In this document: in pieces, positions 42,348 to 63,650 of the stretch | Layout: the number at the start of each line of letters is the position of its first letter | Numbering within the stretch: position 1 is the first letter of the stretch | From: Escherichia phage Esco_phi_B-01 | Sequence record: OP292222.1 | Direction: 5' to 3' (one strand) | DNA length: 64,000 bases | The notes under the pieces: model-generated | The model's database searches: none | The model's input: the letters and a program-made list of their open reading frames with translations, nothing else | What the model was told of the DNA's origin: nothing | Position numbers and translations under genes: made by a program

Positions 42348-42395
42348 GTTTACAAGGTCTATAGGCATGATACTATAGACCTATCAAAACAAACT
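42348..42395 (+). promoter_or_regulatory. PeSL-type early promoter
   Basis: GTTTAC, 17 bp, TACTAT, AGACCTATCAAAAC; palindrome ggtctatag/ctatagacc spans the -10. Confidence 0.55.
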
Positions 42396-42413
42396 AACCA
42401 CATGGAACCCAAA

Positions 42414-42638
42414 ATGAAAACTTATCAAGAATTTATTACAGAAGCTAAAAAGCACGAAGACCAGCTGCCGGTTGTTACAAAAACCTTTGATGGTACACTG
42501 GCCGATTTTAAAAAAATCCCTAGTGATAAACTTGCTAAATTGACCGGAAGCATCAGCGAAAAAGATGGCAAGGTTACGTTTTCTGCCCAAGGCACCGCCA
42601 ATCTTAAAAAACTTTTGAAAGCCGCTGGTGCAGAATAA
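42414..42638 (+). CDS. Internal (capsid-targeted) protein, CTS-bearing
   Basis: 74 aa from MKTYQEFITEA (track ORF starts 12 nt earlier). Confidence 0.6.
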   Translation: MKTYQEFITEAKKHEDQLPVVTKTFDGTLADFKKIPSDKLAKLTGSISEKDGKVTFSAQGTANLKKLLKAAGAE

Positions 42639-42646
42639 AAATAATT

Positions 42647-42700
42647 GTTTACAACGGGCCTTAGTGATGATACTATAGCCCTATCAAAACAAATGAGTGA
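42647..42700 (+). promoter_or_regulatory. PeSL-type early promoter
   Basis: GTTTAC, 18 bp, TACTAT, AGCCCTATCAAAAC. Confidence 0.55.
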
Positions 42701-42712
42701 TTGGAGAATAAA

Positions 42713-42898
42713 ATGAAACGATGCGAATTAATTAGAAATGTTACTGCACTGGCCGCCGTTACTGCTTTTGGCTTTAGTATGTTTGCAGGATTCATGTTGG
42801 ATTTGCTTACAACTTCCGAGAATACAATCTCTTTAGTAGTGGCATTCTTAATTGGTTCAATCTCTTTCGTTATGGATAAAATCTCTAAAGGTGAATAA
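42713..42898 (+). CDS. Small membrane protein (two predicted TM helices)
   Basis: 61 aa from ATG 42713 with GGAGA RBS; hydrophobic segments. Confidence 0.5.
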   Translation: MKRCELIRNVTALAAVTAFGFSMFAGFMLDLLTTSENTISLVVAFLIGSISFVMDKISKGE

Positions 42899-43299
42899 TG
42901 AACGTTGAATATTATGTATATGCGGATTACGAAAATAATCCGTCTAAAGATGAAGATAACCGTTTAGGTGTGGATGCTTTTGAATCCCCTGCAGCGGCAT
43001 GGCAATGGGTTGAAAGAACTGATATTCCTTACCGTTATATTGAAGTGGTCGACCACGCAGGAAACAAGTATCCAAAGGAAGCCTATATCCCTTCTGGGAA
43101 GGTAAATTTCCTTTTGTTCGCGGGTGATAATTATTATCCACGTGGCGGGTATACCGATTTAATCGCTAAGGCATTTTCTGAAGACGAACTACGTAATATC
43201 ATTAAAGAAAACGAGAATAAGCCTCTTTACGGTTCTAATCGTTTTGGCTGGTGGCAGATTGTTAATGCCAATACCCACACTATTGTAGACGAGGGTTAA
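42898..43299 (+). CDS. Hypothetical protein
   Basis: 133 aa; ATGA overlap with upstream gene. Confidence 0.5.
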   Translation: MNVEYYVYADYENNPSKDEDNRLGVDAFESPAAAWQWVERTDIPYRYIEVVDHAGNKYPKEAYIPSGKVNFLLFAGDNYYPRGGYTDLIAKAFSEDELRNIIKENENKPLYGSNRFGWWQIVNANTHTIVDEG

Positions 43300-43590
43300 A
43301 TGTTATACGTTAAGGTTACTAATCCAGAGAATGGCTATAAATCCGATCAGGTTGCAGCTGAGTTGTTGATTCGAAATTACGGCAAAGATGCTGTGCTTGA
43401 TGTTCAACAGGTTAATATTGGCCGTAGTTCAAGCGATGTTAAACTCAAAGTTAACAGCCAACGCTATAATTCTGTTAACTTTACTTTTTATACGGCAAAT
43501 GAAAATGGGTTGGTCGAATATGACATCTTTAAAAATCCTTTGAAAATTGCTTCTATTAAACTTGATTACATTAATATGTGGCCACAATGA
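43300..43590 (+). CDS. Hypothetical protein
   Basis: 96 aa; tightly packed. Confidence 0.5.
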   Translation: MLYVKVTNPENGYKSDQVAAELLIRNYGKDAVLDVQQVNIGRSSSDVKLKVNSQRYNSVNFTFYTANENGLVEYDIFKNPLKIASIKLDYINMWPQ

Positions 43591-44063
43591 ATATTAAATT
43601 CGGACAAATTATCCCTAAAGGTTATGCAATTGAAATTGAAACCTGGGAAAATGATGGCGATAACTATAAAACCCAGACTGTATTTGGCGTAGAAGAACAT
43701 GAAATCCAACAGTACAAATATATCCTAGAACTTTTCCATGGTTCGCATTGCAACAACCCGGATAAATGCGGTAATTCGGAATGGGACGTAGTTAAGCATT
43801 TGGTTATTGCTCACATTGAATCTGGTGTAAAATCAGGCCAATTGACTCCTGAATTTTTAGATAAAGTCCTCGGTATCCAAGACTTGGAAGCCTTGCTGAA
43901 CGATGACGAAGAAGAATACTACTTGAATGAAGCCCTTACTGAGCTCCTTGGTATGGCTTGTGAATATGGTGGCGATTTTATCCGTGCAATTTCTTATGTC
44001 AAGCTGTATATCATTGAAGAAGAAATTAAAATCCCTGATGTGAAAGCACTTGATATGCTTTAA
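43587..44063 (+). CDS. Hypothetical protein
   Basis: 158 aa from ATG 43587 overlapping upstream stop (ATGA). Confidence 0.5.
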   Translation: MNIKFGQIIPKGYAIEIETWENDGDNYKTQTVFGVEEHEIQQYKYILELFHGSHCNNPDKCGNSEWDVVKHLVIAHIESGVKSGQLTPEFLDKVLGIQDLEALLNDDEEEYYLNEALTELLGMACEYGGDFIRAISYVKLYIIEEEIKIPDVKALDML

Positions 44064-44148
44064 GAATTATGTGATAATATTACTCTATCATTAATACCCT
44101 CTATTACCAAAGGTTCTTCCCTCAAAGAGCCTTTCATAATAGAATTAA

Positions 44149-44222
44149 GGCCCTGTAGCTGGACGGTCAAGCGAGCGACTCATAATCGCTGGATGGTGGT
44201 TCGATTCCACCCAGGGCCACCA
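44149..44222 (+). tRNA. tRNA with CAU anticodon (Met or lysidine-modified Ile)
   Basis: Hand-folded cloverleaf: acceptor ggccctg/cagggcc, anticodon stem agcga/tcgct, loop cuCAUaa, T-arm ggtgg-ttcgatt-ccacc, encoded CCA. Confidence 0.8.
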
Positions 44223-44226
44223 ATTT

Positions 44227-44301
44227 GGATGTGTAGCTCAGTGGTAGAGCAGTTGACTGTTAATCAATTGGTCCATGGTTCGAATCCATGCATGTCCGCC
44301 A
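44227..44301 (+). tRNA. tRNA-Asn (GUU)
   Basis: D-arm gctc-agtggta-gagc, anticodon loop cuGUUaa, T-arm catgg-ttcgaat-ccatg, 7-bp acceptor with two G-U pairs, encoded CCA. Confidence 0.8.
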
Positions 44302-44305
44302 AATA

Positions 44306-44381
44306 CGAGGCATAGCTCAGAAGGAAGAGCAACGGTCTTCTAAACCGTAGGTCGTAGGTTCGATCCCTACTGTCTCGACCA
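44306..44381 (+). tRNA. tRNA-Arg (UCU)
   Basis: Anticodon stem acggt/accgt, loop cuUCUaa, T-arm gtagg-ttcgatc-cctac, encoded CCA. Confidence 0.85.
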
Positions 44382-44550
44382 AACAAGAAACCGGGTCGCT
44401 ACCGGTAAGTCGTCGGACTGAAGTTCCCTGAATAAGACCCGACTTTAAGGAGTACATGAGTTCCTCTTAAAGTCCCTTATCTCACAGCTGAAACGGCGCA
44501 CAGAACACTTGCCTAGCAGGTGGAACCCCGACAAGGTTACCCTAGGTTAA
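44382..44550 (+). ncRNA. Candidate small stable RNA downstream of the tRNA cluster (analogous position to T4 stable RNA species)
   Basis: About 170 nt non-coding, several short hairpins, ends at terminator; no ORF. Confidence 0.3.
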
Positions 44551-44551
44551 A

Positions 44552-44579
44552 GGCCCTTCCGAAAGGTTGGGCCTTTTTT
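44552..44579 (+). terminator. Intrinsic terminator ending the tRNA/small RNA unit
   Basis: ggccc-ttccgaaaggtt-gggcc then TTTTTT. Confidence 0.6.
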
Positions 44580-44580
44580 G

Positions 44581-44588
44581 TATAAATA
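44581..44588 (+). promoter_or_regulatory. Late promoter TATAAATA
   Basis: Exact TATAAATA 27 nt upstream of ATG 44615. Confidence 0.45.
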
Positions 44589-44614
44589 TACAGTAAACTA
44601 ACTTAGGAAATAAT

Positions 44615-45169
44615 ATGAAACTTTTAAAATATTTGAGTTGGATTCTGTTGGTCCCACTAGATTTTATCTCTATGGTTCTGGCTGTTATCCTTGCACCTTT
44701 TGTAGTTCCTTTCCACAATAAAAAGACTGGTAAATTGCCATACGGTTTTGATTGGATGATGACATACGATAATCCAATTGACGGTGATAAAGGTCATATT
44801 AAACGTTGGGCTAAAATCAGGAAAATGCCTGGTGGTGTTTATCTCCAGAGAGTAGCTTGGCTATGGCGAAATAAAGCTTATAACTTTGCTTATCATAAAC
44901 TAGGACGTGATTGTAGTTCAGAATTCCATTATCGTGGTAATCCTGACGTAGAATCAGGTTCTCCTGATAAAGCCCACCATGGTTGGTTATGGATGTGGAA
45001 TGATGATGCCTGGGGTGTATTTGCTTCAGTTCCTTATCTTAAGGTCGGCGGAATCACATTTTACCTTCGCGTGTACTGTGGATGGAAGCTTAAGAGCCTT
45101 TTGTCTCGTAAAATCCCTAAAGCTATGTTAGCCTTCCACGTGAACCCGTTCCGGTTCTACAAGAACTGA
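44615..45169 (+). CDS. Hypothetical protein with N-terminal transmembrane segment
   Basis: 184 aa; Trp/His-rich; AGGAAA RBS. Confidence 0.55.
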   Translation: MKLLKYLSWILLVPLDFISMVLAVILAPFVVPFHNKKTGKLPYGFDWMMTYDNPIDGDKGHIKRWAKIRKMPGGVYLQRVAWLWRNKAYNFAYHKLGRDCSSEFHYRGNPDVESGSPDKAHHGWLWMWNDDAWGVFASVPYLKVGGITFYLRVYCGWKLKSLLSRKIPKAMLAFHVNPFRFYKN

Positions 45170-45176
45170 TTTACGG

Positions 45177-45203
45177 CCCTTCCGAAAGGTTGGGCCTTTT
45201 TGT
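45177..45203 (+). terminator. Intrinsic terminator (second copy of the 44552 hairpin)
   Basis: Same ggccc-ttccgaaaggtt-gggcc hairpin and T-run. Confidence 0.55.
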
Positions 45204-45210
45204 ATAAATA
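45203..45210 (+). promoter_or_regulatory. Late promoter TATAAATA
   Basis: Exact TATAAATA 29 nt upstream of ATG 45239. Confidence 0.45.
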
Positions 45211-45862: not shown

Positions 45863-45866
45863 TGAA

Positions 45867-45884
45867 AGGAGACTTCGGTCTCCT
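45867..45884 (+). terminator. Hairpin terminator
   Basis: aggagac-ttcg-gtctcct then TTTT. Confidence 0.55.
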
Positions 45885-45921
45885 TTTAGGGGGTTTAGAC
45901 CAAAAATAATTTCACAAAGTT

Positions 45922-45975
45922 GTTTACACCTCCTTTAAACATGATACTATAGACCTATCAAAACAACAGTGTGAA
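45922..45975 (+). promoter_or_regulatory. PeSL-type early promoter
   Basis: GTTTAC, 17 bp, TACTAT, AGACCTATCAAAAC. Confidence 0.55.
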
Positions 45976-45985
45976 GGAGAGTAAA

Positions 45986-46249
45986 ATGGATAATTATGGC
46001 GAATTGTTTAATTTCTTTATGAAATGCGTTCCTGAAGAATTTGGTGCTACTGTTAACGATATTAAGGTTATAGGTGATGACCATCCCATATTTGAAACTT
46101 ACGCAGTAATGGGTAATGATGATGGACAATGGTACACCGTAAAGGTTGTGGTTAATATGTTTGCCGCCGAAGGTTATGTTAAATTGTCTACCAAAGTTTA
46201 CCATGATAACGATTTTGATGCGGAAGATTATTTCAATAATATGAAATAA
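45986..46249 (+). CDS. Hypothetical protein
   Basis: 87 aa from ATG 45986 with AGGAGA RBS. Confidence 0.5.
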   Translation: MDNYGELFNFFMKCVPEEFGATVNDIKVIGDDHPIFETYAVMGNDDGQWYTVKVVVNMFAAEGYVKLSTKVYHDNDFDAEDYFNNMK

Positions 46250-46305
46250 TTGTTACACGGGCTCATGATTGAGATATTATGAGCCTATAATTTGAGGAGA
46301 GCATA

Positions 46306-46704
46306 ATGAATATCGAAGATAAAGAAATGCAAGAGTTGTATAATTCATTAACACCCGAACAACAAAAAGCTGCCAAAGAATTAGAGAAAGCTCTTACTTT
46401 CAGCTTGGCAAAAACTGATTGGGCCGCCATGTATGAAGAAAAAAGGAGATCGGAAATTGAAGCTGCCGAGAGAAATGAATGGATTGTAGAAACCAAGATT
46501 TCTGATGGTGGTTGCTCTGTTGAGGTGTCAGCTGTGGTTAAAGGTACTCATGGTGAAAAATCACTAGGTTGGCATAATGAGGCAAACAAATATATTGTTC
46601 TCTCAACGTCAAAAACTTATGGTCAAAAGGTTCCTGTATCCAAAGCTATTATTAAGCAAGCTCAATGGGAAGCCAATGAAATCTGCCTCGCCAAAATGAA
46701 ATAA
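46306..46704 (+). CDS. Hypothetical protein
   Basis: 132 aa; GAGGAGA RBS. Confidence 0.5.
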   Translation: MNIEDKEMQELYNSLTPEQQKAAKELEKALTFSLAKTDWAAMYEEKRRSEIEAAERNEWIVETKISDGGCSVEVSAVVKGTHGEKSLGWHNEANKYIVLSTSKTYGQKVPVSKAIIKQAQWEANEICLAKMK

Positions 46705-46706
46705 AT

Positions 46707-46750
46707 GTTTACAACCCTCAGAGGACAGGGTATAATGTCCTCATGGATTA
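46707..46750 (+). promoter_or_regulatory. Early promoter (GTTTAC, 18 bp, TATAAT) with flanking inverted repeat
   Basis: Consensus -10 TATAAT at 46731-46736; gaggaca/tgtcctc inverted repeat around it. Confidence 0.5.
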
Positions 46751-46779
46751 CAAAATACCAACCGACTGAAGGAAATACT

Positions 46780-47373
46780 ATGAATACTTTAAAGAAAATT
46801 GTTGAGTTCATCCGTTCTAAACTGGGTACCGCGATGACTCAGAACCTGTCAATCGAAGACCAGTATACTAAAGCTGCTTCTACCCTGATTGATAAAATTA
46901 CCGAACTCCAGACTGCTCATGTTAAGTCTGTGAATGAAGAAAAACGCATTCGTGCATTGGCAAATGAAAAAGACCAACTGGCTGCTTCTAAAGAACGCGA
47001 AATTCGTAAACTGATTGCCGAAGGCGCCGATGTCCAGGTGCATGCTAAACTTGGCCTCCTTTATCGTCGTACAGCCACTCAACTTCGTAAGAAAGCTGAC
47101 GATTATATCGAAATGCGTAATGAAATTAAACTGAAGGTCAAGGAACTTGATGACTCTCGACAGGAACTGGCTGTTAAGCTCGAGTACATCCGTGAAACTC
47201 GTAATATGGCTGCCCTTGGTATTGCTACTGCCGATGATGTGGTTGAAATCGCTGCACTGACTAAGATTGATATTGAAGATACCCTGCTGCGTGTAGAAAC
47301 GTTTAAAGGCCCACAAGTTGGAATGGATACGACTTCTGCCGATATAGACGACTACATTAATTCACTTAAGTAA
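46780..47373 (+). CDS. Coiled-coil protein, weak PspA/IM30-like pattern
   Basis: 197 aa from ATG 46780 (AAGGAA RBS); heptad-rich; similarity to PspA judged by eye only. Confidence 0.45.
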
Positions 47374-48600: not shown

Positions 48601-48882
48601 ATGATGAATGATAACCATAACCACCCAGAGCTTCTGGCCGCAGTAAAAGAAATTCATGAAGCTATTCGTCGTGCCGAGGAAATTGCAGACAAATATGAGA
48701 CTCATTTTAATATATACCCTGCTCGCGGTATGGGCGGTGACTATTATTCTCCTGGTGCCTTGAAAGCTGACCTTGCCCATTGGGAAGAAGATGGTCATCC
48801 TGAATGGGCTATTGTTAATACTCATGACTATACAACTGACCTGGAAAATGGTGGTTGGGTGTCCTCTTCTTCTGAATGTTAA
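48601..48882 (+). CDS. Small protein, member 2 of tandem paralog array (C-terminal WVSSSSEC)
   Basis: 93 aa; same junction TAAGGAAA-N-ATG. Confidence 0.55.
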   Translation: MMNDNHNHPELLAAVKEIHEAIRRAEEIADKYETHFNIYPARGMGGDYYSPGALKADLAHWEEDGHPEWAIVNTHDYTTDLENGGWVSSSSEC

Positions 48883-48891
48883 GGAAATATT

Positions 48892-49089
48892 ATGTCTCGT
48901 GAATTAGATTGTGCAATCCGAACTGCCGCGGCGGCTATTGAAAACGTTATCCAGATTTGCAAAGAAGAACGTGAAGAAGCTGATATCTATATCGATGGTG
49001 TTCGTGACTTAGAACGACATATCACGCTTTATAACGGTTGTATTACTATTAGTGGTACCTCTTGGGTATCATCCTCTTACGAATGCTAA
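48892..49089 (+). CDS. Small protein, member 3 of tandem paralog array (C-terminal WVSSSYEC)
   Basis: 65 aa. Confidence 0.55.
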   Translation: MSRELDCAIRTAAAAIENVIQICKEEREEADIYIDGVRDLERHITLYNGCITISGTSWVSSSYEC

Positions 49090-49099
49090 GGAATAAAAA

Positions 49100-49324
49100 A
49101 TGACTGATATTGATGAATTAGAAAAAGCTGCTCTTGAACTGGCTGCATTGTATAAGAAAGTAAAAGATATGGCTTCTGCTCAAAGTTTTGGTGTTGAGTT
49201 AGACGATTACGATGGTGAAGTTCGTCTTGAAGATTGGCTGAATAGCTCTTGTTACGGCGAAGAAGCTGGCCGAACCTTCGTTGCTCGTCCCGATGGTAAA
49301 ATCTGGTACCCGAGCTCATGCTAA
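49100..49324 (+). CDS. Small protein, member 4 of tandem paralog array (C-terminal WYPSSC)
   Basis: 74 aa. Confidence 0.5.
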   Translation: MTDIDELEKAALELAALYKKVKDMASAQSFGVELDDYDGEVRLEDWLNSSCYGEEAGRTFVARPDGKIWYPSSC

Positions 49325-49575: not shown

Positions 49576-49905
49576 ATGCATAAAGATTCAGTATTCAAAT
49601 ACCTTTTGAAAACGGATAAAGAATTCTATATGAATGGGCAAGCTTTCTTGTTCATTCGTGGTAAACGTGAGATGTTTTATAAATGCGACCTCTCAATGCA
49701 TCACCATATGTATCATACCCATGGCGAGTCTATACTAGGGTTCTCTAGTGACGAGACTAGACACATAGCTATGTACTACGACCATTTTAAGCTCAATGAT
49801 TGTGGTGACAACGCTTTGGTCTGGAATCCATCTTGGCGACGTTGGGATATGGTAGACAACGATAAATTATTTTTAGAATATTGTAGAAGTGATGTACAAC
49901 TCTAA
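49576..49905 (+). CDS. Hypothetical protein (His/Cys-rich)
   Basis: 109 aa from ATG 49576 with AGGAGG RBS. Confidence 0.5.
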   Translation: MHKDSVFKYLLKTDKEFYMNGQAFLFIRGKREMFYKCDLSMHHHMYHTHGESILGFSSDETRHIAMYYDHFKLNDCGDNALVWNPSWRRWDMVDNDKLFLEYCRSDVQL

Positions 49906-49948
49906 AAACTTGTGTTACTATTACCCTACACAAACATGAGGAGAACAT

Positions 49949-50188
49949 ATGTGGTATTACTCTCCGCTGTCTGATAAGTCTGATGAGCCGGTACGAATTA
50001 GTCGTGCTAAGTTTAAAAAGATTTATGGCTTTGCCTATAAGAAGTCTGATTATGGTGTTCGTTTTGAAGATGCCCACTGTATCAATGACCCTTATGCGGA
50101 AGAAATCTCTAATGAGATAATTCCTATCGTTAAGAATAATTCTGATGATATGTGGGAATTGCATAACGATTACGTTGCTGAAATTTAA
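49949..50188 (+). CDS. Hypothetical protein
   Basis: 79 aa; GAGGAGA RBS. Confidence 0.5.
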   Translation: MWYYSPLSDKSDEPVRISRAKFKKIYGFAYKKSDYGVRFEDAHCINDPYAEEISNEIIPIVKNNSDDMWELHNDYVAEI

Positions 50189-50207
50189 GTTTACTGAGGA
50201 AAATATT

Positions 50208-51167
50208 ATGATGCTAGTTATTGGTTCTCGTGCACTGCACCACGCCGGTCTGATTGAAAGTAAGTATATCGAAAATTCTGATTGGGATTTTATTGCCGAC
50301 CAAGGCTCATGGAATCACTTTAAAGCCCGGATGTTCGGCGCTCATGTGCACGTAGACAACCCAGACGTCCAGGCTTTTAAATGCATGCACAACGGTAAAG
50401 AAACCTATTTTGAAGCTTATATCGTCCGCGCCTTGACTAACGTACGTGAAATTACCGGCGAGCTTCAGGACGAAGATTTAACCTCAAGTTATCGACTCCT
50501 GAAATACGCCGAAAATCATATTAAAAAGGATCGTCTTACAGGTTTCTATTGGGCAACGCCTGATATCTGTCTGGCTATCAAAATGAGCCATCGTTATTTG
50601 AAGAACCACCCTTTCTTTTTGAAGACGATGTCCCACATCAAATATCTTCGTAATAAAGGTGTAACCTTGAATGAAGAGCTCCAAGAAATCATGCTGCAAC
50701 GCCAGAAAGAAACGTTGAGCTATTCTCATCCTAAATTGGATGTAAACAAATCATCATTCTTTAATGATACCATTTATACATTAGACCATGACTCCATCCA
50801 CGAAGCTGTGGCATTGGCTGGACGCCCTGCATATACCTTTTATATGAAAGATGGTTCTGAAGTCATGACCTCACGTGAGAAGTTTGAAGCTTTGCCTGAA
50901 GCTATTAAACTGGCTGGCGTATATGAAGAAACTTGTGTGTTGGCCCTAGAACGTTCACAGGTTCCTAACGACTTTAATATTTCACCATCATTAAGTTTCT
51001 ATATGGCTCTTGAGAAAGTGTGTACCTCAATCACTTCAGGCTGGTTCCGCACTTATGCCTGGGAAAACTACCAAGCTGTAGTGAATATGTATAAGACGCT
51101 AGGTGAAAATGACTACATCAAGCGGTTCCAAGATAACCAACATTTAATTCGTCCTTTCACAAAATAA
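50208..51167 (+). CDS. Putative nucleotidyltransferase-fold protein
   Basis: 319 aa from ATG 50208 (GAGGAAA RBS); N-terminal IGSRALHHAGL...SDWDF resembles GS...DxD motif, with atypical spacing. Confidence 0.5.
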   Translation: MMLVIGSRALHHAGLIESKYIENSDWDFIADQGSWNHFKARMFGAHVHVDNPDVQAFKCMHNGKETYFEAYIVRALTNVREITGELQDEDLTSSYRLLKYAENHIKKDRLTGFYWATPDICLAIKMSHRYLKNHPFFLKTMSHIKYLRNKGVTLNEELQEIMLQRQKETLSYSHPKLDVNKSSFFNDTIYTLDHDSIHEAVALAGRPAYTFYMKDGSEVMTSREKFEALPEAIKLAGVYEETCVLALERSQVPNDFNISPSLSFYMALEKVCTSITSGWFRTYAWENYQAVVNMYKTLGENDYIKRFQDNQHLIRPFTK

Positions 51168-51179: not shown

Positions 51180-51235
51180 GTATACAAGGTCTATAGGTGT
51201 GATACTATAGACCTATCAAAACAACAGAGTGAAAT
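51180..51235 (+). promoter_or_regulatory. PeSL-type early promoter (degenerate -35 GTATAC)
   Basis: GTATAC, 17 bp, TACTAT, AGACCTATCAAAAC; palindrome ggtctatag/ctatagacc. Confidence 0.45.
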
Positions 51236-51245
51236 GGAGAATAAA

Positions 51246-51458
51246 ATGAAACTTTCTAACCAAGCAATCAACATGTTAAACGAAGTTCGTGCAGCTGGTG
51301 CTAAATGCCTGATGGTTAACACTCGTGACGGTGACCTTCGTCAAGCATTTGGTGAATTGAAATCTGCTGACCTGGTTAAATGTTCAGTTGGTATCGGTAA
51401 CGCACTTCGTGTATCTTTATCCCCTAAAGGTAAAATGTACTTTTTCAACAAAAAGTAA
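51246..51458 (+). CDS. Hypothetical protein
   Basis: 70 aa from ATG 51246 with GGAGA RBS. Confidence 0.5.
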   Translation: MKLSNQAINMLNEVRAAGAKCLMVNTRDGDLRQAFGELKSADLVKCSVGIGNALRVSLSPKGKMYFFNKK

Positions 51459-53418: not shown

Positions 53419-53426
53419 TATAAATA
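53419..53426 (+). promoter_or_regulatory. Late promoter TATAAATA for lysozyme gene e
   Basis: Exact TATAAATA; predicted start falls inside the SD-sequestering hairpin. Confidence 0.5.
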
Positions 53427-53448
53427 CCTCCTATAATCAGGAGGTATT
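53422..53448 (+). promoter_or_regulatory. Hairpin sequestering the e ribosome-binding site in upstream-initiated transcripts
   Basis: Inverted repeat aaatacctcc/ggaggtattt with loop tataatca; the 3' arm contains AGGAGG immediately before ATG 53450. Confidence 0.6.
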
Positions 53449-53449
53449 T

Positions 53450-53938
53450 ATGGATATTTTTGATATGTTACGTCAAGACGAAGGTCTTGATTTAAATCTT
53501 TATAAAGACACCGAAGGTTATTGGACTATTGGTATAGGCCAGTTAGTTACCAAGAACCCATCTAAAGATGTTGCTCGCGCTGAACTTGATAAGCTTATGG
53601 GGCGAGTTTGTAATGGTCGTATTACTATGGCTGAAGCTGAACAGCTCTTTAACCGTTCAGTGGAAAATGCTCGTAGAGCTATAATGCGTAATCCTAAATT
53701 GAAACCGGTTTATGATGTGCTGGACGAAGTTCGTCGTTGCGCATTGATTAATATGGTCTTCCAAATGGGCGAAGCTGGTGTAGCAGGATTTACCAACTCT
53801 CTGCGTATGCTCCAACAGAAACGTTGGGATGATGCAGCAGTTAACCTGGCACAGTCTCGTTGGTACAAGCAAACCCCGAATCGTGCCAAGCGTGTTATCG
53901 CCACCTTTAAAACCGGTACTTGGGCTGCTTATAGATAA
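53450..53938 (+). CDS. e: Lysozyme (endolysin)
   Basis: 162 aa; [13 protein letters not shown]...[13 protein letters not shown] matches recalled T4 lysozyme. Confidence 0.95.
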
Positions 53939-53942
53939 AGCA

Positions 53943-53990
53943 GTTTACATCTCCTAGAATTGTGATAGTATATCTACAGTTACTTGAACA
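53943..53990 (+). promoter_or_regulatory. Early promoter (GTTTAC, 18 bp, TAGTAT), diverged PeSL
   Basis: GTTTAC at 53943; -10-like TAGTAT. Confidence 0.4.
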
Positions 53991-54021
53991 AACTAATTAA
54001 ATTTACATTTGAAGGACCCGT

Positions 54022-54618
54022 ATGAAAACGTATAAAGAATTTATCACCGAAGCTACTGCAGGAAAGGTCAAAGGCATTAATAAAGATGAGTGGACTTACC
54101 GAGGAAACGGTGTTGACCGCATAGGAAACGGCTTTGACGCTAAAACAGCTCCTATTGAACGATACTTAGCTACAAAGGCTTCCGACTTTAAAGCTTTCGC
54201 TTGGGAAGGACTTCGCTGGCGTAACGATTTGAATATTGAAGCTGATGGACTTAAATTTGGCCATATTCAAGATGTTGTTGCTAGTAACTTAGACTCGGAC
54301 TTTATTAAAGCTGATGAATCCCTTCGTCGCTGGAATTTAAAACTGTTCTCTAAACAGAAAGGTCCGGTGTTTGTACCTAAAGCAGGTAAATGGACTATTG
54401 ATAATAAATTGGCTAAGGCTGTCAACTTCGCCGGACTTGAATTTGCCAAGCATAAATCAGCATGGAAAGGTCTTGATGCAATGGCTTTTCGTAAAGAATT
54501 TGCCGATGTTATGACTAAAGCCGGCTTTAAGGCAGAACTAGATACCTCTAAAGGTACGTTTAAAGACGCTAATATTCAGTACGCTTACGCCGTTGCTAAT
54601 GCAGCCCGTGGTAATTAA
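54022..54618 (+). CDS. ipIII: Internal protein III-like capsid-targeted protein
   Basis: 198 aa (T4 IPIII 193); N-terminal MKTYKEFITEA CTS; adjacent to e as in T4. Confidence 0.55.
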   Translation: MKTYKEFITEATAGKVKGINKDEWTYRGNGVDRIGNGFDAKTAPIERYLATKASDFKAFAWEGLRWRNDLNIEADGLKFGHIQDVVASNLDSDFIKADESLRRWNLKLFSKQKGPVFVPKAGKWTIDNKLAKAVNFAGLEFAKHKSAWKGLDAMAFRKEFADVMTKAGFKAELDTSKGTFKDANIQYAYAVANAARGN

Positions 54619-54644
54619 TAAAGTCCTCTTATAGATAAAAAGTT

Positions 54645-54699
54645 GTTTACTTCTCCTGTAGGCATGATACTATAGACCTATCAACTACAGGAGATTAAA
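54645..54699 (+). promoter_or_regulatory. PeSL-type early promoter
   Basis: GTTTAC, 18 bp, TACTAT, AGACCTATCAA; stem ctcctgtag/ctacaggag pairs the spacer with the SD region. Confidence 0.55.
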
Positions 54700-55116
54700 A
54701 TGACTCGTATCAACCTTACCTTAGTATCTGAATTGGCTGACCAACACTTAATGGCCGAATATCGTGAATTACCACGTGTTTTCGGTGCAGTTCGTAAGCA
54801 TGTTGCTAACGGTAAACGTGTTCGTGATTTTAAAATCAGCCCTACTTTTATCCTTGGCACAGGCCATGTTACATTCTTTTATGATAAGCTTGAATTTTTA
54901 CGTAAGCGTCAAATTGAGCTTATAGCCGAATGTTTAAAACGTGGCTTTAATATCAAGGATACTACAGTCCAGGACATTAGTGATATTCCTCAGGAATTCC
55001 GTGGTGATTATGTTCCTCACGAAGCTTCTATCGCTATTTCACAAGCCCGTTTGGATGAAAAAATTGCACAACGCCCTACCTGGTACAAACATTATGGTAA
55101 GGCGATTTATGCATAA
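54700..55116 (+). CDS. denV: Endonuclease V (pyrimidine dimer DNA glycosylase)
   Basis: 138 aa; essentially identical to recalled T4 endoV ([34 protein letters not shown]...). Confidence 0.95.
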
Positions 55117-56304: not shown

Positions 56305-56579
56305 TTGAAGATATCAAAGGTTACAAGCCACATACCGACGATAAAATCAGTAAAGTGAATGCCATTAAAGATGCTGAAGTTCGATTAGGCTTAATCTTTA
56401 AAGCATTAGAAGAAGAATACGTTGAAGCCTTTACATGCTCAGGTGTTGATAAAATGAGTGATGAAGAATTCGACCTCACTCATGAACGTCTCGCCCAGAT
56501 TCGTACGGCAATCGAACGCTTGAAAGAAGCTTCTATGTGGGCCTGCCGTTCCGTTTTCCAACCTGAAGAAAAATACTAA
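56301..56579 (+). CDS. Hypothetical protein
   Basis: 92 aa. Confidence 0.45.
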   Translation: MIEDIKGYKPHTDDKISKVNAIKDAEVRLGLIFKALEEEYVEAFTCSGVDKMSDEEFDLTHERLAQIRTAIERLKEASMWACRSVFQPEEKY

Positions 56580-56584: not shown

Positions 56585-56641
56585 GTTTACATCTCCTGTA
56601 GACGTGGTACTATAGACCTATCAACTACAGGAGATTACAAA
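56585..56641 (+). promoter_or_regulatory. PeSL-type early promoter
   Basis: GTTTAC, 18 bp, TACTAT, AGACCTATCAA; stem tctcctgtag/ctacaggaga. Confidence 0.55.
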
Positions 56642-57100
56642 ATGTCAGAAATTAATTCAGAAGTATTCATCCGCCGCAACAAATTACGTCGTCAGTTCGA
56701 AACCGAATTTCGTGAACTTAACGCGTCCATCAAAAAAGCCGCCATTAAGAGCGGTGTCCCAGCTTTCTTTATTAAGTACTCTAATCACTTGTTGGACCGT
56801 GCTATCCAACGTGAAATTGACGAAAAATATGTTTTCTCTTTGTTCAAGAAGCTCCATAATCATGTTAAAGAAATCCATGAATTTTTAATCCAGGAGCCTC
56901 TTCCTGACGTAGAATCTGAAATTATCCCAGGTAAGGTGTATCGTCCACTGCGTCTCGAGATTACCGATAAAACCTTATGGTTGGGTATGACCGTAGATCG
57001 TAAACATCCTGATAAAGGATATTCATTAAAATGTCGTATGGCATTTGTTAACTCTAAACGTTTAGAAGGTAAAACCAGCACGAAAGTAATCTATCTTTAA
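56642..57100 (+). CDS. regB: RegB site-specific endoribonuclease
   Basis: 152 aa (T4 153); EVFIRRNKLRR, HLLDRAIQREIDE, RLEITD match recalled T4 RegB. Confidence 0.8.
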   Translation: MSEINSEVFIRRNKLRRQFETEFRELNASIKKAAIKSGVPAFFIKYSNHLLDRAIQREIDEKYVFSLFKKLHNHVKEIHEFLIQEPLPDVESEIIPGKVYRPLRLEITDKTLWLGMTVDRKHPDKGYSLKCRMAFVNSKRLEGKTSTKVIYL

Positions 57101-60667: not shown

Positions 60668-60672
60668 TCAAA

Positions 60673-60698
60673 GGTCTCACTTCGGTGGGACCTTTTTT
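60673..60698 (+). terminator. Intrinsic terminator
   Basis: ggtctcac-ttcg-gtgggacc then TTTTTT. Confidence 0.6.
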
Positions 60699-60707: not shown

Positions 60708-60764
60708 GTTTACATCCTCTAGGAACGTGATACTATAGACCTATCAACTAATGAGGAGAAAGTT
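60708..60764 (+). promoter_or_regulatory. PeSL-type early promoter
   Basis: GTTTAC, 17 bp, TACTAT, AGACCTATCAA. Confidence 0.55.
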
Positions 60765-60947
60765 ATGTTAACTACCGAACAGATTGAGAAAATTATTAAA
60801 CTCGCCCAGCATATTGAAAACGCATCCAATGACCTAGCTGTTGAATATTGTGAAGGCTATTCATATTCCGGAATAGAGCAGTGTAAACGAGATTTGGCTA
60901 ACTCTAAAGCAGCCTTGGTTGAGTATCTTAATGAGTTGAAAGCATAA
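60765..60947 (+). CDS. Hypothetical protein
   Basis: 60 aa; GAGGAGA RBS. Confidence 0.45.
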   Translation: MLTTEQIEKIIKLAQHIENASNDLAVEYCEGYSYSGIEQCKRDLANSKAALVEYLNELKA

Positions 60948-61204: not shown

Positions 61205-61295
61205 TTTACTATCTTGAACCTTGGGCTTGGCTTACAATGCTTATTGGTCCAGTTTTAATGGGTTTATTCTTTTCATGGTTAGCGAGGAAACTGTA

Positions 61296-61493
61296 ATGTT
61301 ATACGACCCGAGTGGTAATTCTGAAGATGGTATTATTGTCCTTTTGGCAGATGTTGAAGAGTCTGACGATGACATCTTTGTTAAAGATTGGGAAGAAAAA
61401 GGCGGAATCACGCTCCAACAAGAAAATGATATGATTTGTCTGAATGCAAGCCAAGTCGAAGAACTTTATAGTATTTTAAAACATAACCGTTGA
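61296..61493 (+). CDS. Small acidic hypothetical protein
   Basis: 65 aa from ATG 61296 with GAGGAAA RBS. Confidence 0.4.
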   Translation: MLYDPSGNSEDGIIVLLADVEESDDDIFVKDWEEKGGITLQQENDMICLNASQVEELYSILKHNR

Positions 61494-61503
61494 GGAACAG
61501 AAA

Positions 61504-62064
61504 ATGATTATTGAAACAACTGAATTGTTTGGTGAACTGACCGCTGAAGTAGTTGATAATGCAATTGTGCTTTCACAAGAAGACGATAAAATCGTACTAA
61601 CTATCCAAGATATTAAACCACTTTATGATTTAAAGGTTTTGGATAAAGATGGGTATCTTGATGGACGCCATAGAGCATCGTTTGATATTAACGACGATGT
61701 ATGGGCCCAGATTTATAAAAATGAAGACGGATTTAATATCGAAACTGATACGGAATGTCTAAGCATTAGGAATTCTAGTAATTTCTTTAAATGTATTTTT
61801 AAACTGTTCCAGGAAGAATGCAAGCCTGAAGTTGAATGGAAAGTTCCAGGTCAAGATGCGGTGATTCGTTCTAGTGAAACATTTGAAGGTGATGAAGAAG
61901 AAATGGATTATGATACCGAACTAACCGTGTATCAACACCAGGGCCGTGATTTGCTATCCTTGGTCCAAAGACACGACGGTGAAAGTGAATTGGTATTTAC
62001 TAAAGACGAGCTAAAAGTTTTAGTCTCTTATCTGAACTCTGTTATCCCAACTATGAACTCTTAA
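61504..62064 (+). CDS. Hypothetical acidic protein
   Basis: 186 aa. Confidence 0.5.
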   Translation: MIIETTELFGELTAEVVDNAIVLSQEDDKIVLTIQDIKPLYDLKVLDKDGYLDGRHRASFDINDDVWAQIYKNEDGFNIETDTECLSIRNSSNFFKCIFKLFQEECKPEVEWKVPGQDAVIRSSETFEGDEEEMDYDTELTVYQHQGRDLLSLVQRHDGESELVFTKDELKVLVSYLNSVIPTMNS

Positions 62065-62074
62065 GGAAAATATT

Positions 62075-62527
62075 ATGATTATCAATTCAAACTCTTGGCA
62101 CGTTAAATTACACGACCGTTTTTACGACCGTCATTCTCGACCACACTCTTTGTGTGCTTATTTCTGGAAAATGGTTTGGGCTTGTTTTGCTTGTGCAGTT
62201 GTTGCAGGTAGTACGCTTTTTGGATTAACTGTTGCAGGAGCTGGTGTATTAGAGCATTTCTTTGTATTAAGTACTCCCGTTCTGTTGAGCCTCGGGTTTG
62301 TTTTAGGGTTGACTGCAATAGCTCTTATTATTGCGCTATCCATCGGTTTGGCATTCGGTGCGATGAATTTACACGCATGGTATGATGCCCGTAAAGAAGA
62401 AAAGGAATGGGAACGAATTAAAGCTAAACGTGAAGGAAAGGAAATTAAAGAAAATATAGTCGTCCAATACATTAAAGCTCGTAAATCTAAGATGTGTCCT
62501 GTAATTCACTTCGAGAACAAAGAATGA
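62075..62527 (+). CDS. Membrane protein (multiple TM helices)
   Basis: 150 aa; AAGGAAA RBS. Confidence 0.5.
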   Translation: MIINSNSWHVKLHDRFYDRHSRPHSLCAYFWKMVWACFACAVVAGSTLFGLTVAGAGVLEHFFVLSTPVLLSLGFVLGLTAIALIIALSIGLAFGAMNLHAWYDARKEEKEWERIKAKREGKEIKENIVVQYIKARKSKMCPVIHFENKE

Positions 62528-63534
62528 GAACAGTTATGAAAGGCTACTTCGGTAGCCATCTTTATGGAACAAGTACTCCGGAATCCGATGTCGATTTTAA
62601 AGAAATCTTTGTTCCACATCCGCGTGATATTCTGTTAGGTACGGCAATGAACCATACCAACCTGAACACGAATAACACTGCTTCCAAAAACACTAAAGAT
62701 GATGTTGACCATGAGCTTTACAGCCTGAAATATTTCTTTAAACTGGCTGCTGAAGGCGAAACCGTTGCTCTGGATATGCTCCACACTCCACCTGAACTAG
62801 TGGTTAAATCTGATTTACCTGATGTATGGAAATTTATCCAAGATAACCGTTCACGTTTCTATACAACTAACATGAAAGCCTATTTAGGGTACGTCCGTAA
62901 GCAAGCTTCTAAATATGGTGTTAAGGGTTCTCGATTGGCTGCTCTGCGTGGTGTACTGGCAATTGTTAACCAGATTCCTGAACAGTGGGTCGATTATCAA
63001 GAAGGCATTCCAGATCGTTTACGTCGGACTAAGGTAGAAGATATCAAGCACAGGCTCCCTGAAAACGAGTTTTGCGAATGGGTATTTCATAACCATGAGA
63101 AAACAGGTCCTCAAACGTTCTATACTGTCCTCGGACGTAAGTACCAAACTACTTTGTCATTGGTCGAGCTTAAGCAATCTCTGAATAAACTCGATGCCGA
63201 ATATGGCGAACGTGCTCGTAAGGCTGAAGCCAATGAAGGTATTGACTGGAAAGCTCTGAGCCATGCTTATCGTGCCGGGTACCAATTGATGGAAATCTAC
63301 CAAACTGGTGACTTGGTATTCCCATTGCGTGAAGCCTCTATCATTAAGCTGATTAAAGCTGGTGAATTACCATTTAAAGAAGTTCAAGAACTTCTTGAAG
63401 ATACTGTCGATTTAGTTGAAGTTCTGGCCATCCAGGCAGCTAAGAATGGTATGCCTGCGAAGGTGGACATGAAGTTCTGGGACAAGTTCGTCGAAGAGGT
63501 GTACCTTGACAACCACAACTCTTATTACCGTTAA
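62521..63534 (+). CDS. Putative Pol-beta-type nucleotidyltransferase-domain protein
   Basis: 337 aa from ATG 62521; N-terminal YFGSHLYGTSTPESDVDF matches hG[GS]x9-13[DE]h[DE]h. Confidence 0.55.
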   Translation, partial: RMRTVMKGYFGSHLYGTSTPESDVDFKEIFVPHPRDILLGTAMNHTNLNTNNTASKNTKDDVDHELYSLKYFFKLAAEGETVALDMLHTPPELVVKSDLPDVWKFIQDNRSRFYTTNMKAYLGYVRKQASKYGVKGSRLAALRGVLAIVNQIPEQWVDYQEGIPDRLRRTKVEDIKHRLPENEFCEWVFHNHEKTGPQTFYTVLGRKYQTTLSLVELKQSLNKLDAEYGERARKAEANEGIDWKALSHAYRAGYQLMEIYQTGDLVFPLREASIIKLIKAGELPFKEVQELLEDTVDLVEVLAIQAAKNGMPAKVDMKFWDKFVEEVYLDNHNSYYR

Positions 63535-63542
63535 CTAAATTT

Positions 63543-63566
63543 AGGACCCTTCGGGGTCCTTTTTTG
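63543..63566 (+). terminator. Intrinsic terminator
   Basis: aggaccc-ttcg-gggtcct then TTTTTT. Confidence 0.6.
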
Positions 63567-63584
63567 GGTTTAGTGCAAAAAAGA

Positions 63585-63650
63585 GTTTACACTCTCGTAG
63601 AGCATGTTATTATGGACCTATCAAATCTACTGAGTGAAACGGAGAATATA
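63585..63650 (+). promoter_or_regulatory. PeSL-type early promoter
   Basis: GTTTAC, 17 bp, TATTAT, GGACCTATCAA. Confidence 0.5.

What the first reader, a model, noticed from the sequence alone, without database searches (positions are those of the whole stretch)
42348..63650. Eleven copies of a conserved early promoter plus stem-loop cassette (PeSL-like)
A roughly 50-bp element recurs at 8289, 42348, 42647, 45922, 46707, 51180, 53943, 54645, 56585, 60708 and 63585. It consists of GTTTAC, a 17-18 bp spacer, TACTAT and a near-invariant AGACCTATCAA(AAC). In several copies a palindrome spans the -10 (ggtctatag/ctatagacc); in others the spacer pairs with the downstream SD (ctcctgtag/ctacaggag). 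Matches the promoter-early stem-loop elements described in T4-type phages as regulatory cassettes and recombination substrates for module shuffling.
Basis: partly seen in the sequence, partly recalled or inferred. Interest (0 to 1): 0.6.

Follow-up and report, generated by a model that had tools for sequence, protein, structure and literature searches.

The report
T4-type early promoter cassettes (PeSL-like)
The repeated 60-base element is the standard early promoter of a JS98-like (T4-type) coliphage, packaged with a conserved start site, a ribosome-binding site and often a hairpin. It marks the points where related phages have swapped small genes, which is a known kind of element and not a new one.

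Summary
All 11 listed copies exist, all on the + strand and each 55-79 nt upstream of an ORF start. A profile built from them finds no other strong copy. I found one degenerate copy that was missed (46250) and one doubtful one (49892).

The window is a Dhakavirus (JS98-like) hyperplastic early region running from gene 57B to nrdC.10. The element is the T4-type sigma-70 early promoter: UP element, GTTTAC, TGn, TACTAT, then N4-CTATCAA around an A start, usually with a RegB-type GGAG Shine-Dalgarno. T4, RB69 and SP18 carry the same family at orthologous sites, and T4's denV promoter is almost identical.

About half the copies have a hairpin whose 5' arm lies in the promoter spacer. Its 3' arm lies either in the discriminator or over the Shine-Dalgarno. 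The complementarity is significant and covaries between orthologues.

Alignment breaks against five relatives fall at 9 of 10 cassette junctions versus 17 of 48 other junctions. JS10 has a single ORF flanked by two cassette copies where the window has one copy. The discriminator is more uniform within a genome than between orthologues.

This matches the T-even-type PeSL of Repoila 1994, Arbiol 2010 and Comeau 2014. It is a new member of a known kind and of modest interest.

The parts
8289..8350 (+). Early-promoter cassette (GTTTAC-N18-TACTAT-AGTCCTATCAA, SD GGAG). It drives an 88-aa ORFan (8348-8614) that lies between the late genes 24 and 23 and is oriented opposite to them.
42348..42416 (+). 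Cassette with a class A hairpin (AGGTCTATAG/CTATAGACCT spanning the -10). It drives an internal-protein-like ORF 42414-42638 (MKTYQEFITEA...).
   Evidence: (z=-5.7)
42647..42715 (+). Cassette upstream of trna.4. The discriminator is AGCCC and the spacer carries a matching GGGC. The SD, GGAGAATAAAA, is a perfect match to the RegB consensus.
45865..45886 (+). Intrinsic terminator (UUCG loop) directly upstream of cassette 45922. The scan reported this hairpin as a hit on the - strand. I read it as a + strand terminator by eye from the sequence; the T-run after the stem is only four T's.
45922..45988 (+). Cassette upstream of e.8. The spacer CCTCCTT pairs with the SD AAGGAGAG (class B).
   Evidence: SD unpaired 0.64 in own transcript vs 0.01 in read-through
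46250..46308 (+). Missed, degenerate copy. The -35 is GTTACA, the -10 is TATTAT, and an 11-bp hairpin GGGCTCATGAT/ATTATGAGCCT encloses the -10. It is the orthologue of the T4 e.7 promoter and precedes ORF 46306-46704.
   Evidence: (E=0.68)
46707..46782 (+). Divergent copy upstream of e.6 (TATAAT -10, no AGACCTATCAA). GAGGAC/GTCCTC brackets the -10.
49892..49951 (+). Doubtful degenerate copy (ATGTAC-N18-TACTAT-TACCCTACACAA) upstream of ORF 49949-50188.
   Evidence: (E=4.9)
51180..51248 (+). Cassette (GTATAC -35) with a class A hairpin and the SD GGAGAATAAAA. It drives a 70-aa ORF 51246-51458.
53943..54024 (+). Divergent copy upstream of ipIII (TAGTAT -10).
54645..54702 (+). denV promoter cassette with a class B hairpin, TCTCCTGTAG/CTACAGGAGA, that masks the SD in read-through RNA.
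   Evidence: (T4 orthologue 51 bits)
56585..56644 (+). regB promoter cassette with the same class B hairpin.
   Evidence: (PF10715, E=2e-69)
60670..60695 (+). Intrinsic terminator directly upstream of cassette 60708.
60708..60767 (+). Cassette upstream of a mobD.3-like 60-aa ORF (DUF7438). Its 3' end, at about 60741-60760, is the boundary of insertions in relatives.
63543..63560 (+). Intrinsic terminator directly upstream of cassette 63585.
63585..63653 (+). Cassette upstream of nrdC.10 (TATTAT, GGACCTATCAA). JS10 has two cassette copies flanking an extra ORF at this position.

Best explanation
Each copy is a sigma-70-dependent T4-type early promoter cassette of a Dhakavirus (JS98-like) phage. 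Reading 5' to 3', it consists of:
- an A/T-rich UP region that usually contains the stop codon of the gene before it;
- GTTTAC at -35;
- a 17-18 nt spacer ending in TGn;
- TACTAT at -10;
- a discriminator and start block, AGAC-CT-A(+1)TCAA;
- a short leader, and usually a GGAG Shine-Dalgarno of the type cut by the phage RegB nuclease.

Host RNA polymerase fires these promoters immediately after infection. They drive small accessory genes (internal proteins, trna.4, e.8, e.6, denV, regB, mobD.3, nrdC.10 and ORFans).

In about half the copies the spacer is complementary to sequence downstream of the -10, so a hairpin can form only in RNA that reads through from an upstream promoter. Where the 3' arm covers the Shine-Dalgarno (45922, 54645, 56585), the read-through RNA should be untranslatable and protected from RegB. 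The promoter's own transcript lacks the 5' arm and stays open.

Because about 40-60 nt are nearly identical among many copies in one orientation, the cassettes also act as portable homology for the phage's recombination system. Single ORFs or small modules are gained, lost or replaced at cassette edges, and the copies are homogenised within a genome.

What is shown here: sequence family, orthology to T4 promoters, complementarity with covariation, breakpoint association, and within-genome homogenisation. What is inferred: promoter activity and the +1 position, masking of read-through RNA, and recombination as the cause of the breakpoints.
For: Motif statistics and completeness of the set.

The window is a Dhakavirus early region. 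The gene order 57B-ip-trna.x-tRNAs-e.x-e-ipIII-denV-vs.x-regB-tk-mobD-nrdC is annotated in five relatives. denV and regB are confirmed by Pfam.

The same element sits at orthologous sites in five Dhakaviruses and in T4, RB69 and SP18. The T4 denV promoter scores 51 bits against the profile.

Literature:
- T4 early promoters are UP/-35/TGn/-10 promoters with additional consensus regions (PMC2988021).
- GTTTAC lies at -36 to -31 and there is a C preference at -3 to -1 (PMC1524935).
- regB has a typical early promoter and a GGAG SD that RegB cuts. The consensus is GGAGRAYARAA, and secondary structure protects against cleavage (PMC3014915).

Hairpins:
- Spacer versus downstream duplex against shuffled spacers gives Fisher-combined p = 2e-12 for the window set and 1.4e-7 for the T4 set.
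- Cognate partners beat non-cognate partners at p = 1.5e-4 and 0.007.
- In an alignment of 8 denV/regB/nrdC.8 promoters from Dhakavirus, T4 and RB69, 88.6% of cells are paired (0 of 500 shuffles reach this). Five of 11 pairs change on both sides, and slid controls give 39-58%.
- The sense strand folds better than the antisense strand, p = 0.02.
- The predicted unpaired probability of the SD falls from 0.64, 0.34 and 0.08 to 0.01 or less in read-through context for 45922, 54645 and 56585.

Recombination:
- 9 of 10 cassette junctions versus 17 of 48 other junctions carry alignment breaks against five relatives (Fisher p = 0.002).
- 41 of 116 HSP ends fall in 3.7% of the sequence.
- In JS10, two 39-nt identical cassette copies flank one 79-aa ORF where the window has a single copy.
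- The same 5' halves are found joined to different 3' halves across IMG/VR genomes.
- Discriminator identity is 0.66 between paralogues within a genome (0.92 in the Dhakavirus) versus 0.51 between orthologues across genera, permutation p = 2e-4.
- There are about 14 exact core copies per ~170-kb JS98-like genome, all on one strand.
Against: No transcript data exist for this phage, so promoter activity and +1 rest on orthology.

The hairpin is not universal. Of 50 distinct cassettes with the exact core in IMG/VR, about 44 have a -35 at the proper spacing. Twenty-one of the 50 reach z < -2, and about 15-18 show no complementarity at all. In the window, only 4 of 11 have whole-region fold z below -3.7.

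SD masking is predicted clearly for only 3 of 11 copies. The class A hairpins, whose 3' arm lies in the discriminator, mask nothing identifiable, so their role is unexplained.

The breakpoint counts pool five related genomes and are not independent. Transcription-unit boundaries might be preferred module borders whatever mechanism creates the breaks.

Within-genome uniformity of the discriminator could reflect lineage-specific selection and not gene conversion.

Many breakpoints (17 junctions) have no cassette. Some of these involve homing endonucleases or other short repeats.
Confidence: 0.75

Rival explanations
1. These are plain early promoters and nothing more. All the similarity reflects selection for optimal contacts with RNA polymerase, the stems are incidental, and the association with mosaic boundaries only reflects the fact that modules are transcription units.
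For: T4 early promoters are known to have extended consensus beyond the hexamers (PMC2988021). N4-CTATCAA is shared by four genera that use the same host polymerase. About a third of cassettes have no stem.
Against: The arm sequences differ between promoters while complementarity is kept. Discriminators are more alike within a genome than between orthologues, although all four phages use a closely related enterobacterial sigma-70 polymerase. Tandem cassette-ORF-cassette versus a single cassette, and breaks placed exactly at cassette edges, are not explained by polymerase contacts.
Confidence: 0.15
2. The promoter-spanning stem-loops are transcription terminators or attenuators that insulate each cassette, as shown for the RB49 PeSL211/210 stem.
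For: Arbiol 2010 measured terminator activity for an RB49 stem-loop, with stems often placed between -35 and -10 or over the -10.
Against: The stems here are AT-rich, 6-11 bp, and are followed by ATCAAAAC or TTAAAATG with no T-run. The terminator scan does not pick them up. Canonical GC-rich UUCG terminators are present as separate elements upstream of only 3 copies.
Confidence: 0.08
3. The near-invariant TACTATAGACCTATCAA block is a recognition site for a lineage-specific phage factor. It could be a DNA site used to shut off early promoters, or a signal at the 5' end of the RNA.
For: The mechanism that shuts down T4 early promoters is not understood (PMC2988021, PMC3014915). The block is far more uniform in Dhakavirus (0.92) than in T4 (0.46).
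Against: There is no candidate factor and no dyad symmetry common to all copies. T4 and RB69 carry the same AGACC version at a few promoters alongside other versions, which fits exchange of cassettes better than a dedicated factor.
Confidence: 0.07
4. The inverted repeats act at the DNA level. They might extrude as a hairpin or cruciform that exposes the -10, or act as a target for structure-specific nucleases that start recombination.
For: The -10 lies in or next to the loop in most stems. Arbiol 2010 speculated about a DNA-binding protein for PeSL stems.
Against: The stems contain G-T pairs that are favourable only in sense RNA, and the sense strand folds better than the antisense strand. 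Arms of 6-11 bp with 6-10 nt loops extrude poorly. In class B the 3' arm follows the Shine-Dalgarno and not a fixed promoter position.
Confidence: 0.05

Closest known systems
Bacteriophage T4 early promoters (Pe) and their orthologues in RB69 and other T-even-type phages
   Same: They share GTTTAC at -35, a 17-18 nt spacer, TGn, TA(C/T)(A/T)AT at -10, an A/T-rich UP region, a C-rich -3 to -1 and an A start. They occupy the same positions upstream of regB, denV, ip genes, trna.4, e.8, e.6, nrdC.8 and nrdC.10. The T4 denV promoter is nearly identical.
   Different: In this lineage the block after the -10 is almost fixed as AGACCTATCAA. T4 mixes ACAAC, TACC, AGACC and TTTT versions.
T-even-type PeSL / IP-locus elements (Repoila 1994; Comeau 2014 for T4/PST)
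   Same: They are composite early promoter plus stem-loop plus SD/start cassettes. They are concentrated in hyperplastic regions, next to ORFans and internal-protein genes, and lie at indel and replacement boundaries between close relatives. The promoter consensus TTTACW-N17-TAYWAT fits.
   Different: Comeau 2014 draws the stems just upstream of the promoter. Here only 3 copies have such an upstream terminator-like stem, and most stems bracket the -10. Whether mini-circles form was not tested.
RB49/phi1 PeSL (Arbiol 2010)
   Same: The stem position (between -35 and -10, or over the -10), the association with ORFans and with insertion/deletion/replacement events, and the cassette-ORF-cassette arrangement are all shared.
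   Different: The RB49 elements have near-consensus TTGACA/TATAAT and polyG/polyC stems that terminate transcription. The elements here have GTTTAC/TACTAT and AT-rich stems without U-tracts. The authors themselves call the T-even elements analogues and not homologues.
SD-masking leader hairpins of T4 genes e, soc, 49 and I-TevI
   Same: A promoter lies within or at the 5' arm of a hairpin whose 3' arm contains the Shine-Dalgarno, so only the promoter-proximal transcript is translatable. The gene e version itself is present in the window at 53419-53452.
   Different: In those cases the internal promoter is a late promoter (TATAAATA) and the logic is temporal. Here it is an early promoter inside an early polycistronic region, and the masked SD is also a RegB site.

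Membership tests
T4-type early promoter | GTTTAC-like -35 hexamer at -36 to -31 | tested here: met
   10 of 11 copies have GTTTAC and one has GTATAC.
T4-type early promoter | 17-18 nt spacer ending in TGn (extended -10), followed by TAnnAT | tested here: met
   All 11 copies have a 17 or 18 nt spacer and TAnnAT. Ten of 11 have TGn, and 46707 has GGG.
T4-type early promoter | A/T-rich UP region upstream of the -35 | tested here: met
   The upstream 12-30 nt are A/T-rich in all copies (for example aaaaataatt, tttcacaaagtt). The tttcacaaagtt version is shared with T4 promoters.
T4-type early promoter | Located upstream of, and co-oriented with, orthologues of T4 early genes, at the sites of T4 promoters | tested here: met
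   The copies precede regB, denV, ipIII, trna.4, e.8, e.6 and nrdC.10. The matching T4, RB69 and SP18 elements are, the relatives' annotation, and the Pfam hits.
T4-type early promoter | Transcription starts immediately after infection, by unmodified host polymerase, without phage protein synthesis | not testable with these tools
   No transcript data are available for this phage. A literature search for T4 5'-end maps found nothing usable.
PeSL sensu Arbiol 2010 (RB49/phi1) | Near-perfect sigma-70 consensus TTGACA-N17-TATAAT | tested here: not met
   The hexamers are GTTTAC and TACTAT. Only 46707 has TATAAT.
PeSL sensu Arbiol 2010 (RB49/phi1) | Stable stem-loop, usually polyG/polyC, with terminator activity | tested here: not met
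   The stems are AT-rich with variable sequence and no T-run. Terminator activity itself could not be tested.
PeSL sensu Arbiol 2010 (RB49/phi1) | Stem between -35 and -10, or overlapping the -10 | tested here: met
   The 5' arm lies in the spacer and the 3' arm in the -10/discriminator or the leader.
T-even-type PeSL (Comeau 2014; Repoila 1994) | Promoter TTTACW-N17-TAYWAT with an SD and start codon at the 3' end | tested here: met
   The consensus is quoted from PMC4122927.
T-even-type PeSL (Comeau 2014; Repoila 1994) | Associated stem-loop structure | tested here: inconclusive
   The complementarity is significant overall. However, upstream terminator-type stems occur at only 3 copies. Roughly half of the copies have a clear promoter-spanning stem, and about a third of the 50 distinct cassettes show no complementarity at all.
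T-even-type PeSL (Comeau 2014; Repoila 1994) | Concentrated in hyperplastic regions and found at indels or replacements between close relatives | tested here: met
   Ten of 11 copies lie in the 42-64 kb mosaic region. Breaks occur at 9 of 10 cassette junctions versus 17 of 48 others, p = 0.002. A cassette-ORF-cassette arrangement is present in JS10.
T-even-type PeSL (Comeau 2014; Repoila 1994) | Recombination between copies yields deletions or mini-circles | not testable with these tools
   This needs inverse PCR or long-read data from infected cells.
SD-masking hairpin with internal promoter (T4 e/soc/49/I-TevI type) | The SD or AUG is paired in the long transcript and free in the promoter-proximal transcript | tested here: inconclusive
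   This is predicted strongly for 45922, 54645 and 56585, weakly for 51180, 53943 and 60708, and not at all for the other five. It is a prediction only.
SD-masking hairpin with internal promoter (T4 e/soc/49/I-TevI type) | The internal promoter is a late promoter (TATAAATA) | tested here: not met
   The internal promoter here is of the early type. The true gene e example, with TATAAATA, is at 53419-53452.

The most novel reading that the evidence does not exclude
A hairpin that encloses the -10 element may be a selected, covarying feature of early promoters across at least four genera of T4-type coliphages. Its 5' arm lies in the spacer and its 3' arm lies in the discriminator or over the Shine-Dalgarno. 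It would work as a read-through filter: in densely packed tandem early units, each gene is translated, and exposed to RegB, only from the transcript started at its own promoter. The start-site block would be kept uniform within a genome by gene conversion among the copies. The reviews available here list this kind of masking only for late promoters (e, soc, 49, I-TevI).
Probability: 0.3. Interest if true: 0.5.

Novelty: new member of a known kind. Interest (0 to 1): 0.3.

Why it matters
It gives a ready-made early promoter map for this phage and marks the joints at which its accessory genes are exchanged. That is useful for annotation, for engineering therapeutic JS98-like phages, and for reading mosaicism in T4-type genomes. 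The covarying promoter-embedded hairpins and the within-genome uniformity of the start block are testable additions to the PeSL picture, but the element itself is already described in the literature.

Tried and rejected
- Terminator role for the promoter-spanning stems. Rejected because no T-runs follow them and the terminator scan does not find them.
- A known RNA family. Rfam finds only the three tRNAs.
- A common protein operator. Rejected because the arm sequences differ from copy to copy.
- The AGTCCTATCAA match at 27309 (- strand). It lies in coding sequence with no promoter upstream, so I treated it as chance.
- The weak profile hits at 31928 and 59625. They are not cassettes; 59625 is only TACTATGGACCTA overlapping a start codon.
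- Primary papers I could not retrieve: Zuber 2007 on JS98, Repoila 1994 and Miller 2003. What I say about them comes from Arbiol 2010 and the 2010 reviews.
- A literature search for T4 5'-end maps found nothing usable.
- Pfam gave no family for 7 of the 10 downstream ORFs, which is consistent with ORFans.
- The four strongest hairpins all lack an upstream terminator. That is only a trend among 11 copies and I did not pursue it.

Full report
**Observation.** The pattern GTTTAC-N16-19-TACTAT occurs seven times exactly, all on the + strand, against 0.05 expected. AGACCTATCAA with at most one mismatch occurs ten times against 1.25 expected. Nine of those lie directly after the -10 hexamer of a listed copy. 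A profile built from the eleven listed copies recovers exactly those eleven, at E = 4e-17 to 2.5e-9. The next hit has E = 0.08.

All copies are on the + strand. Each lies 55-79 nt upstream of the start codon of a + strand ORF. Two copies (46707, 53943) share the promoter but not the AGACCTATCAA block. Four others differ from the consensus by one base in a hexamer or in the block.

A degenerate twelfth copy was missed at 46250-46308. Its -35 has lost one T, and an 11-bp hairpin of -15.7 kcal/mol encloses the -10. A doubtful thirteenth lies at 49892.

**Where the window comes from.** The region matches Dhakavirus (JS98-like) T4-type coliphages at 91-97% identity, but no record covers more than 80% of the 40-64 kb stretch in one piece. 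Five relatives were fetched: ABTNLS3, IME08, AnYang, MN04 and JS10. Their annotation gives the gene order 3, 1, 57A, 57B, ip, trna.4-2, three tRNAs, e.8, e.6, ORFans, e.2, nudE, e, ipIII, denV, vs.x, regB, vs, tk, rI.-1, mobD.x, nrdC.11, nrdC.10.

Pfam confirms denV at 54700-55116 and regB at 56642-57100. Seven of the ten ORFs behind cassettes have no family. The copy at 8289 drives an 88-aa ORFan that sits between the late genes 24 and 23 and points the other way.

**What the element is.** The same element sits at the orthologous sites in all five Dhakaviruses. It is also present in T4, RB69 (Mosigvirus) and SP18 (Gaprivervirus). The T4 denV promoter scores 51 bits against the window profile and is almost identical to the copy at 54645.

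The core shared by the four genera is GT(T/G)TAC, 17-18 nt ending in TGn, TAnnAT, four variable bases, then C(T/C)ATCAA. An A lies seven nt after the -10. This is the T4 early promoter:
- Reviews describe it as an UP/-35/TGn/-10 promoter with additional consensus regions (PMC2988021).
- GTTTAC lies at -36 to -31, with a preference for C at -3 to -1 (PMC1524935).

Eight of the eleven copies have a GGAG Shine-Dalgarno. Two of them (42647, 51180) match the full strong-site consensus GGAGRAYARAA.

An exact search of IMG/VR for TACTATAGACCTATCAA finds about 14 copies per ~170-kb JS98-like genome, always on one strand.

**The stem-loops.** Two arrangements occur. In class A the spacer pairs with the end of the -10 and the discriminator. 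Examples are AGGTCTATAG/CTATAGACCT at 42348 and 51180, GGGC/GCCC at 42647, GAGGAC/GTCCTC at 46707, and the copy at 46250. In class B a pyrimidine-rich spacer pairs with the leader and the Shine-Dalgarno. Examples are TCTCCTGTAG/CTACAGGAGA at 54645 and 56585, and CCTCCTT/AAGGAGAG at 45922.

Folding the whole promoter-to-start region gives z of -5.7, -4.6, -4.0 and -3.8 for four copies. The rest are weaker.

A direct test compared the duplex energy between spacer and downstream segment with that of shuffled spacers. It gives a Fisher-combined p of 2e-12 for the window set and 1.4e-7 for T4. Cognate partners beat non-cognate partners at p = 1.5e-4 and 0.007.

Orthologues keep the pairing with different sequences:
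- T4 ipI has TGATGAGGTA/TACCTCATCA.
- T4 regB has TTCCTCTTGAC/GTTAAGAGGAG.
- RB69 regB has a 14-bp stem.
- nrdC.8 in Dhakavirus has TCTCCAGTAG/CTACTGGAG, an A-T swap relative to denV and regB.

On an alignment of eight such promoters, the 11-bp stem has 88.6% of cells paired (0 of 500 shuffles reach this). Five pairs change on both sides, and slid controls give 39-58%. The sense strand folds better than the antisense strand (p = 0.02), which favours an RNA-level structure.

The stems are not universal. Of 50 distinct cassettes with the exact core in IMG/VR, 21 reach z < -2. About a third show nothing.

**How the stems probably work.** The 5' arm lies upstream of the start site, so the hairpin cannot form in the promoter's own transcript. 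It can form only in RNA reading through from an upstream promoter.

For 45922, 54645 and 56585 the predicted probability that the Shine-Dalgarno is unpaired is 0.64, 0.34 and 0.08 in the own transcript. It falls to 0.01 or less in read-through RNA. The effect is small or absent for the other copies. This is the logic established for T4 genes e, soc, 49 and I-TevI, where a late promoter lies inside the hairpin (PMC3014915). The gene e example itself is conserved in the window at 53419-53452.

RNA structure also protects against RegB cleavage. The masked read-through RNA should therefore be both silent and uncut.

The class A stems mask nothing that I can identify, and their role remains open.

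None of the promoter-spanning stems is followed by a T-run, so they are unlikely to be terminators. Canonical terminator-type hairpins with UUCG loops sit immediately upstream of three copies, at 45865-45886, 60670-60695 and 63543-63560. The scan reports the first of these as a hit on the - strand; I read it as a + strand terminator from the sequence.

**Recombination.** I aligned the window with the five relatives and collected the HSP ends. Nine of the ten cassette-bearing gene junctions carry at least one break, against 17 of 48 other junctions (Fisher p = 0.002). Forty-one of 116 HSP ends fall within the cassettes, which make up 3.7% of the sequence.

The breaks sit at cassette edges: 42321-42327, 42638-42642, 45904, 51250, 53923-53942, 54623-54696, 56577-56579, 60741-60763 and 63534-63579.

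In JS10 two 39-nt identical cassette copies flank a single 79-aa ORF where the window has one cassette (63585). In MN04 and JS10 an extra ORF follows the 60708 cassette. The internal-protein ORF between cassettes 42348 and 42647 is replaced or duplicated in relatives. This is the situation that Arbiol 2010 attributes to Repoila 1994.

Across IMG/VR genomes the same 5' half is found joined to different 3' halves, and the reverse.

The six bases after the -10 are more alike between different promoters of one genome (0.66, and 0.92 in the Dhakavirus) than between orthologous promoters of different genera (0.51). The permutation p is 2e-4. That fits homogenisation by exchange among copies, although lineage-specific selection is not excluded.

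These counts pool related genomes and are not independent events. Many breaks (17 junctions) have no cassette. Some of those involve homing endonuclease genes or other short repeats.

**Comparison with what is known.** The elements pass every testable criterion for T4-type early promoters. They fail two defining features of the original RB49/phi1 PeSL: near-consensus TTGACA/TATAAT, and polyG/polyC stems with terminator activity. They share the stem position and the genomic behaviour with it.

They fit the T-even version. Arbiol 2010 describes this as analogous elements based on T4 early promoters, with weaker AT-rich stems. Comeau 2014 gives the T4/PST consensus TTTACW-N17-TAYWAT and the association with indels. 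Arbiol 2010 also mentions PeSL-like sequences in JS98.

**Verdict.** It is a new member of a known kind.

Three points go somewhat beyond the papers I could read:
- the covariation of promoter-enclosing stems across four genera;
- the pairing of an early promoter with a masked RegB-type Shine-Dalgarno;
- the within-genome uniformity of the start block.

I could not access several primary T4 papers, so I cannot claim these points are new. Interest is 0.3.

Noticed in passing
window 53419-53452: This is the classic gene e (lysozyme) leader hairpin. TATAAATACCTCC pairs with GGAGGTATTTATG, so the late promoter TATAAATA lies in the 5' arm and the SD and AUG lie in the 3' arm, just as described for T4.
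   Followed up: partly
window 48601-49324; repeat at 49084-49126: A run of small tandem ORFs shares conserved 3' ends and junctions (..TCCTCTTC..GAATG(C/T)TAAGGAA(A/T)..ATG). All five relatives carry an extra ~180-bp segment here, apparently one more ORF of this kind, flanked by a 43-bp repeat. These junctions may be a second, promoter-free kind of recombination linker.
   Followed up: partly
window 50191-50210: A 20-bp overlap marks a 160-161-bp insertion in MN04 and JS10 that has no cassette nearby.
   Followed up: no
L001:15800-15870, L002:13260-13335, L003:16160-16230: denV has a second promoter allele in Dhakaviruses that carry ipII upstream: GTTTACTTTTACAACAGCTGTGATATAGTGTTCTCATACAAACACGGAGAAC. 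Here GTTCTC/GGAGAAC would pair within the promoter's own transcript.
   Followed up: no
window 5684-6964 and 6964-8247 (- strand): There are two adjacent paralogous ORFs of 426 and 427 aa, both resembling the gene 24 vertex protein. They are followed by the early-promoter-driven ORFan at 8348-8614, at the position where T4 has segD.
   Followed up: no
window 4265-4294: GTTTAC-N18-TAAGAT lies at a divergent junction between a - strand ORF (3246-4253) and + strand ORFs (4293-5657). It may be a promoter outside this family.
   Followed up: no
window 42414-42446 and 54022-54054: Both ip-type ORFs behind cassettes start with MKTY(Q/K)EFITEA. This matches, from my own knowledge, the conserved capsid-targeting leader of T4 internal proteins. 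If so, the homology block usable for exchange extends from the promoter into the first 11 codons.
   Followed up: no
window 44149-44381: There are three tRNA genes (Met-CAT, Asn-GTT, Arg-TCT), the same set as in JS98-like relatives.
   Followed up: yes
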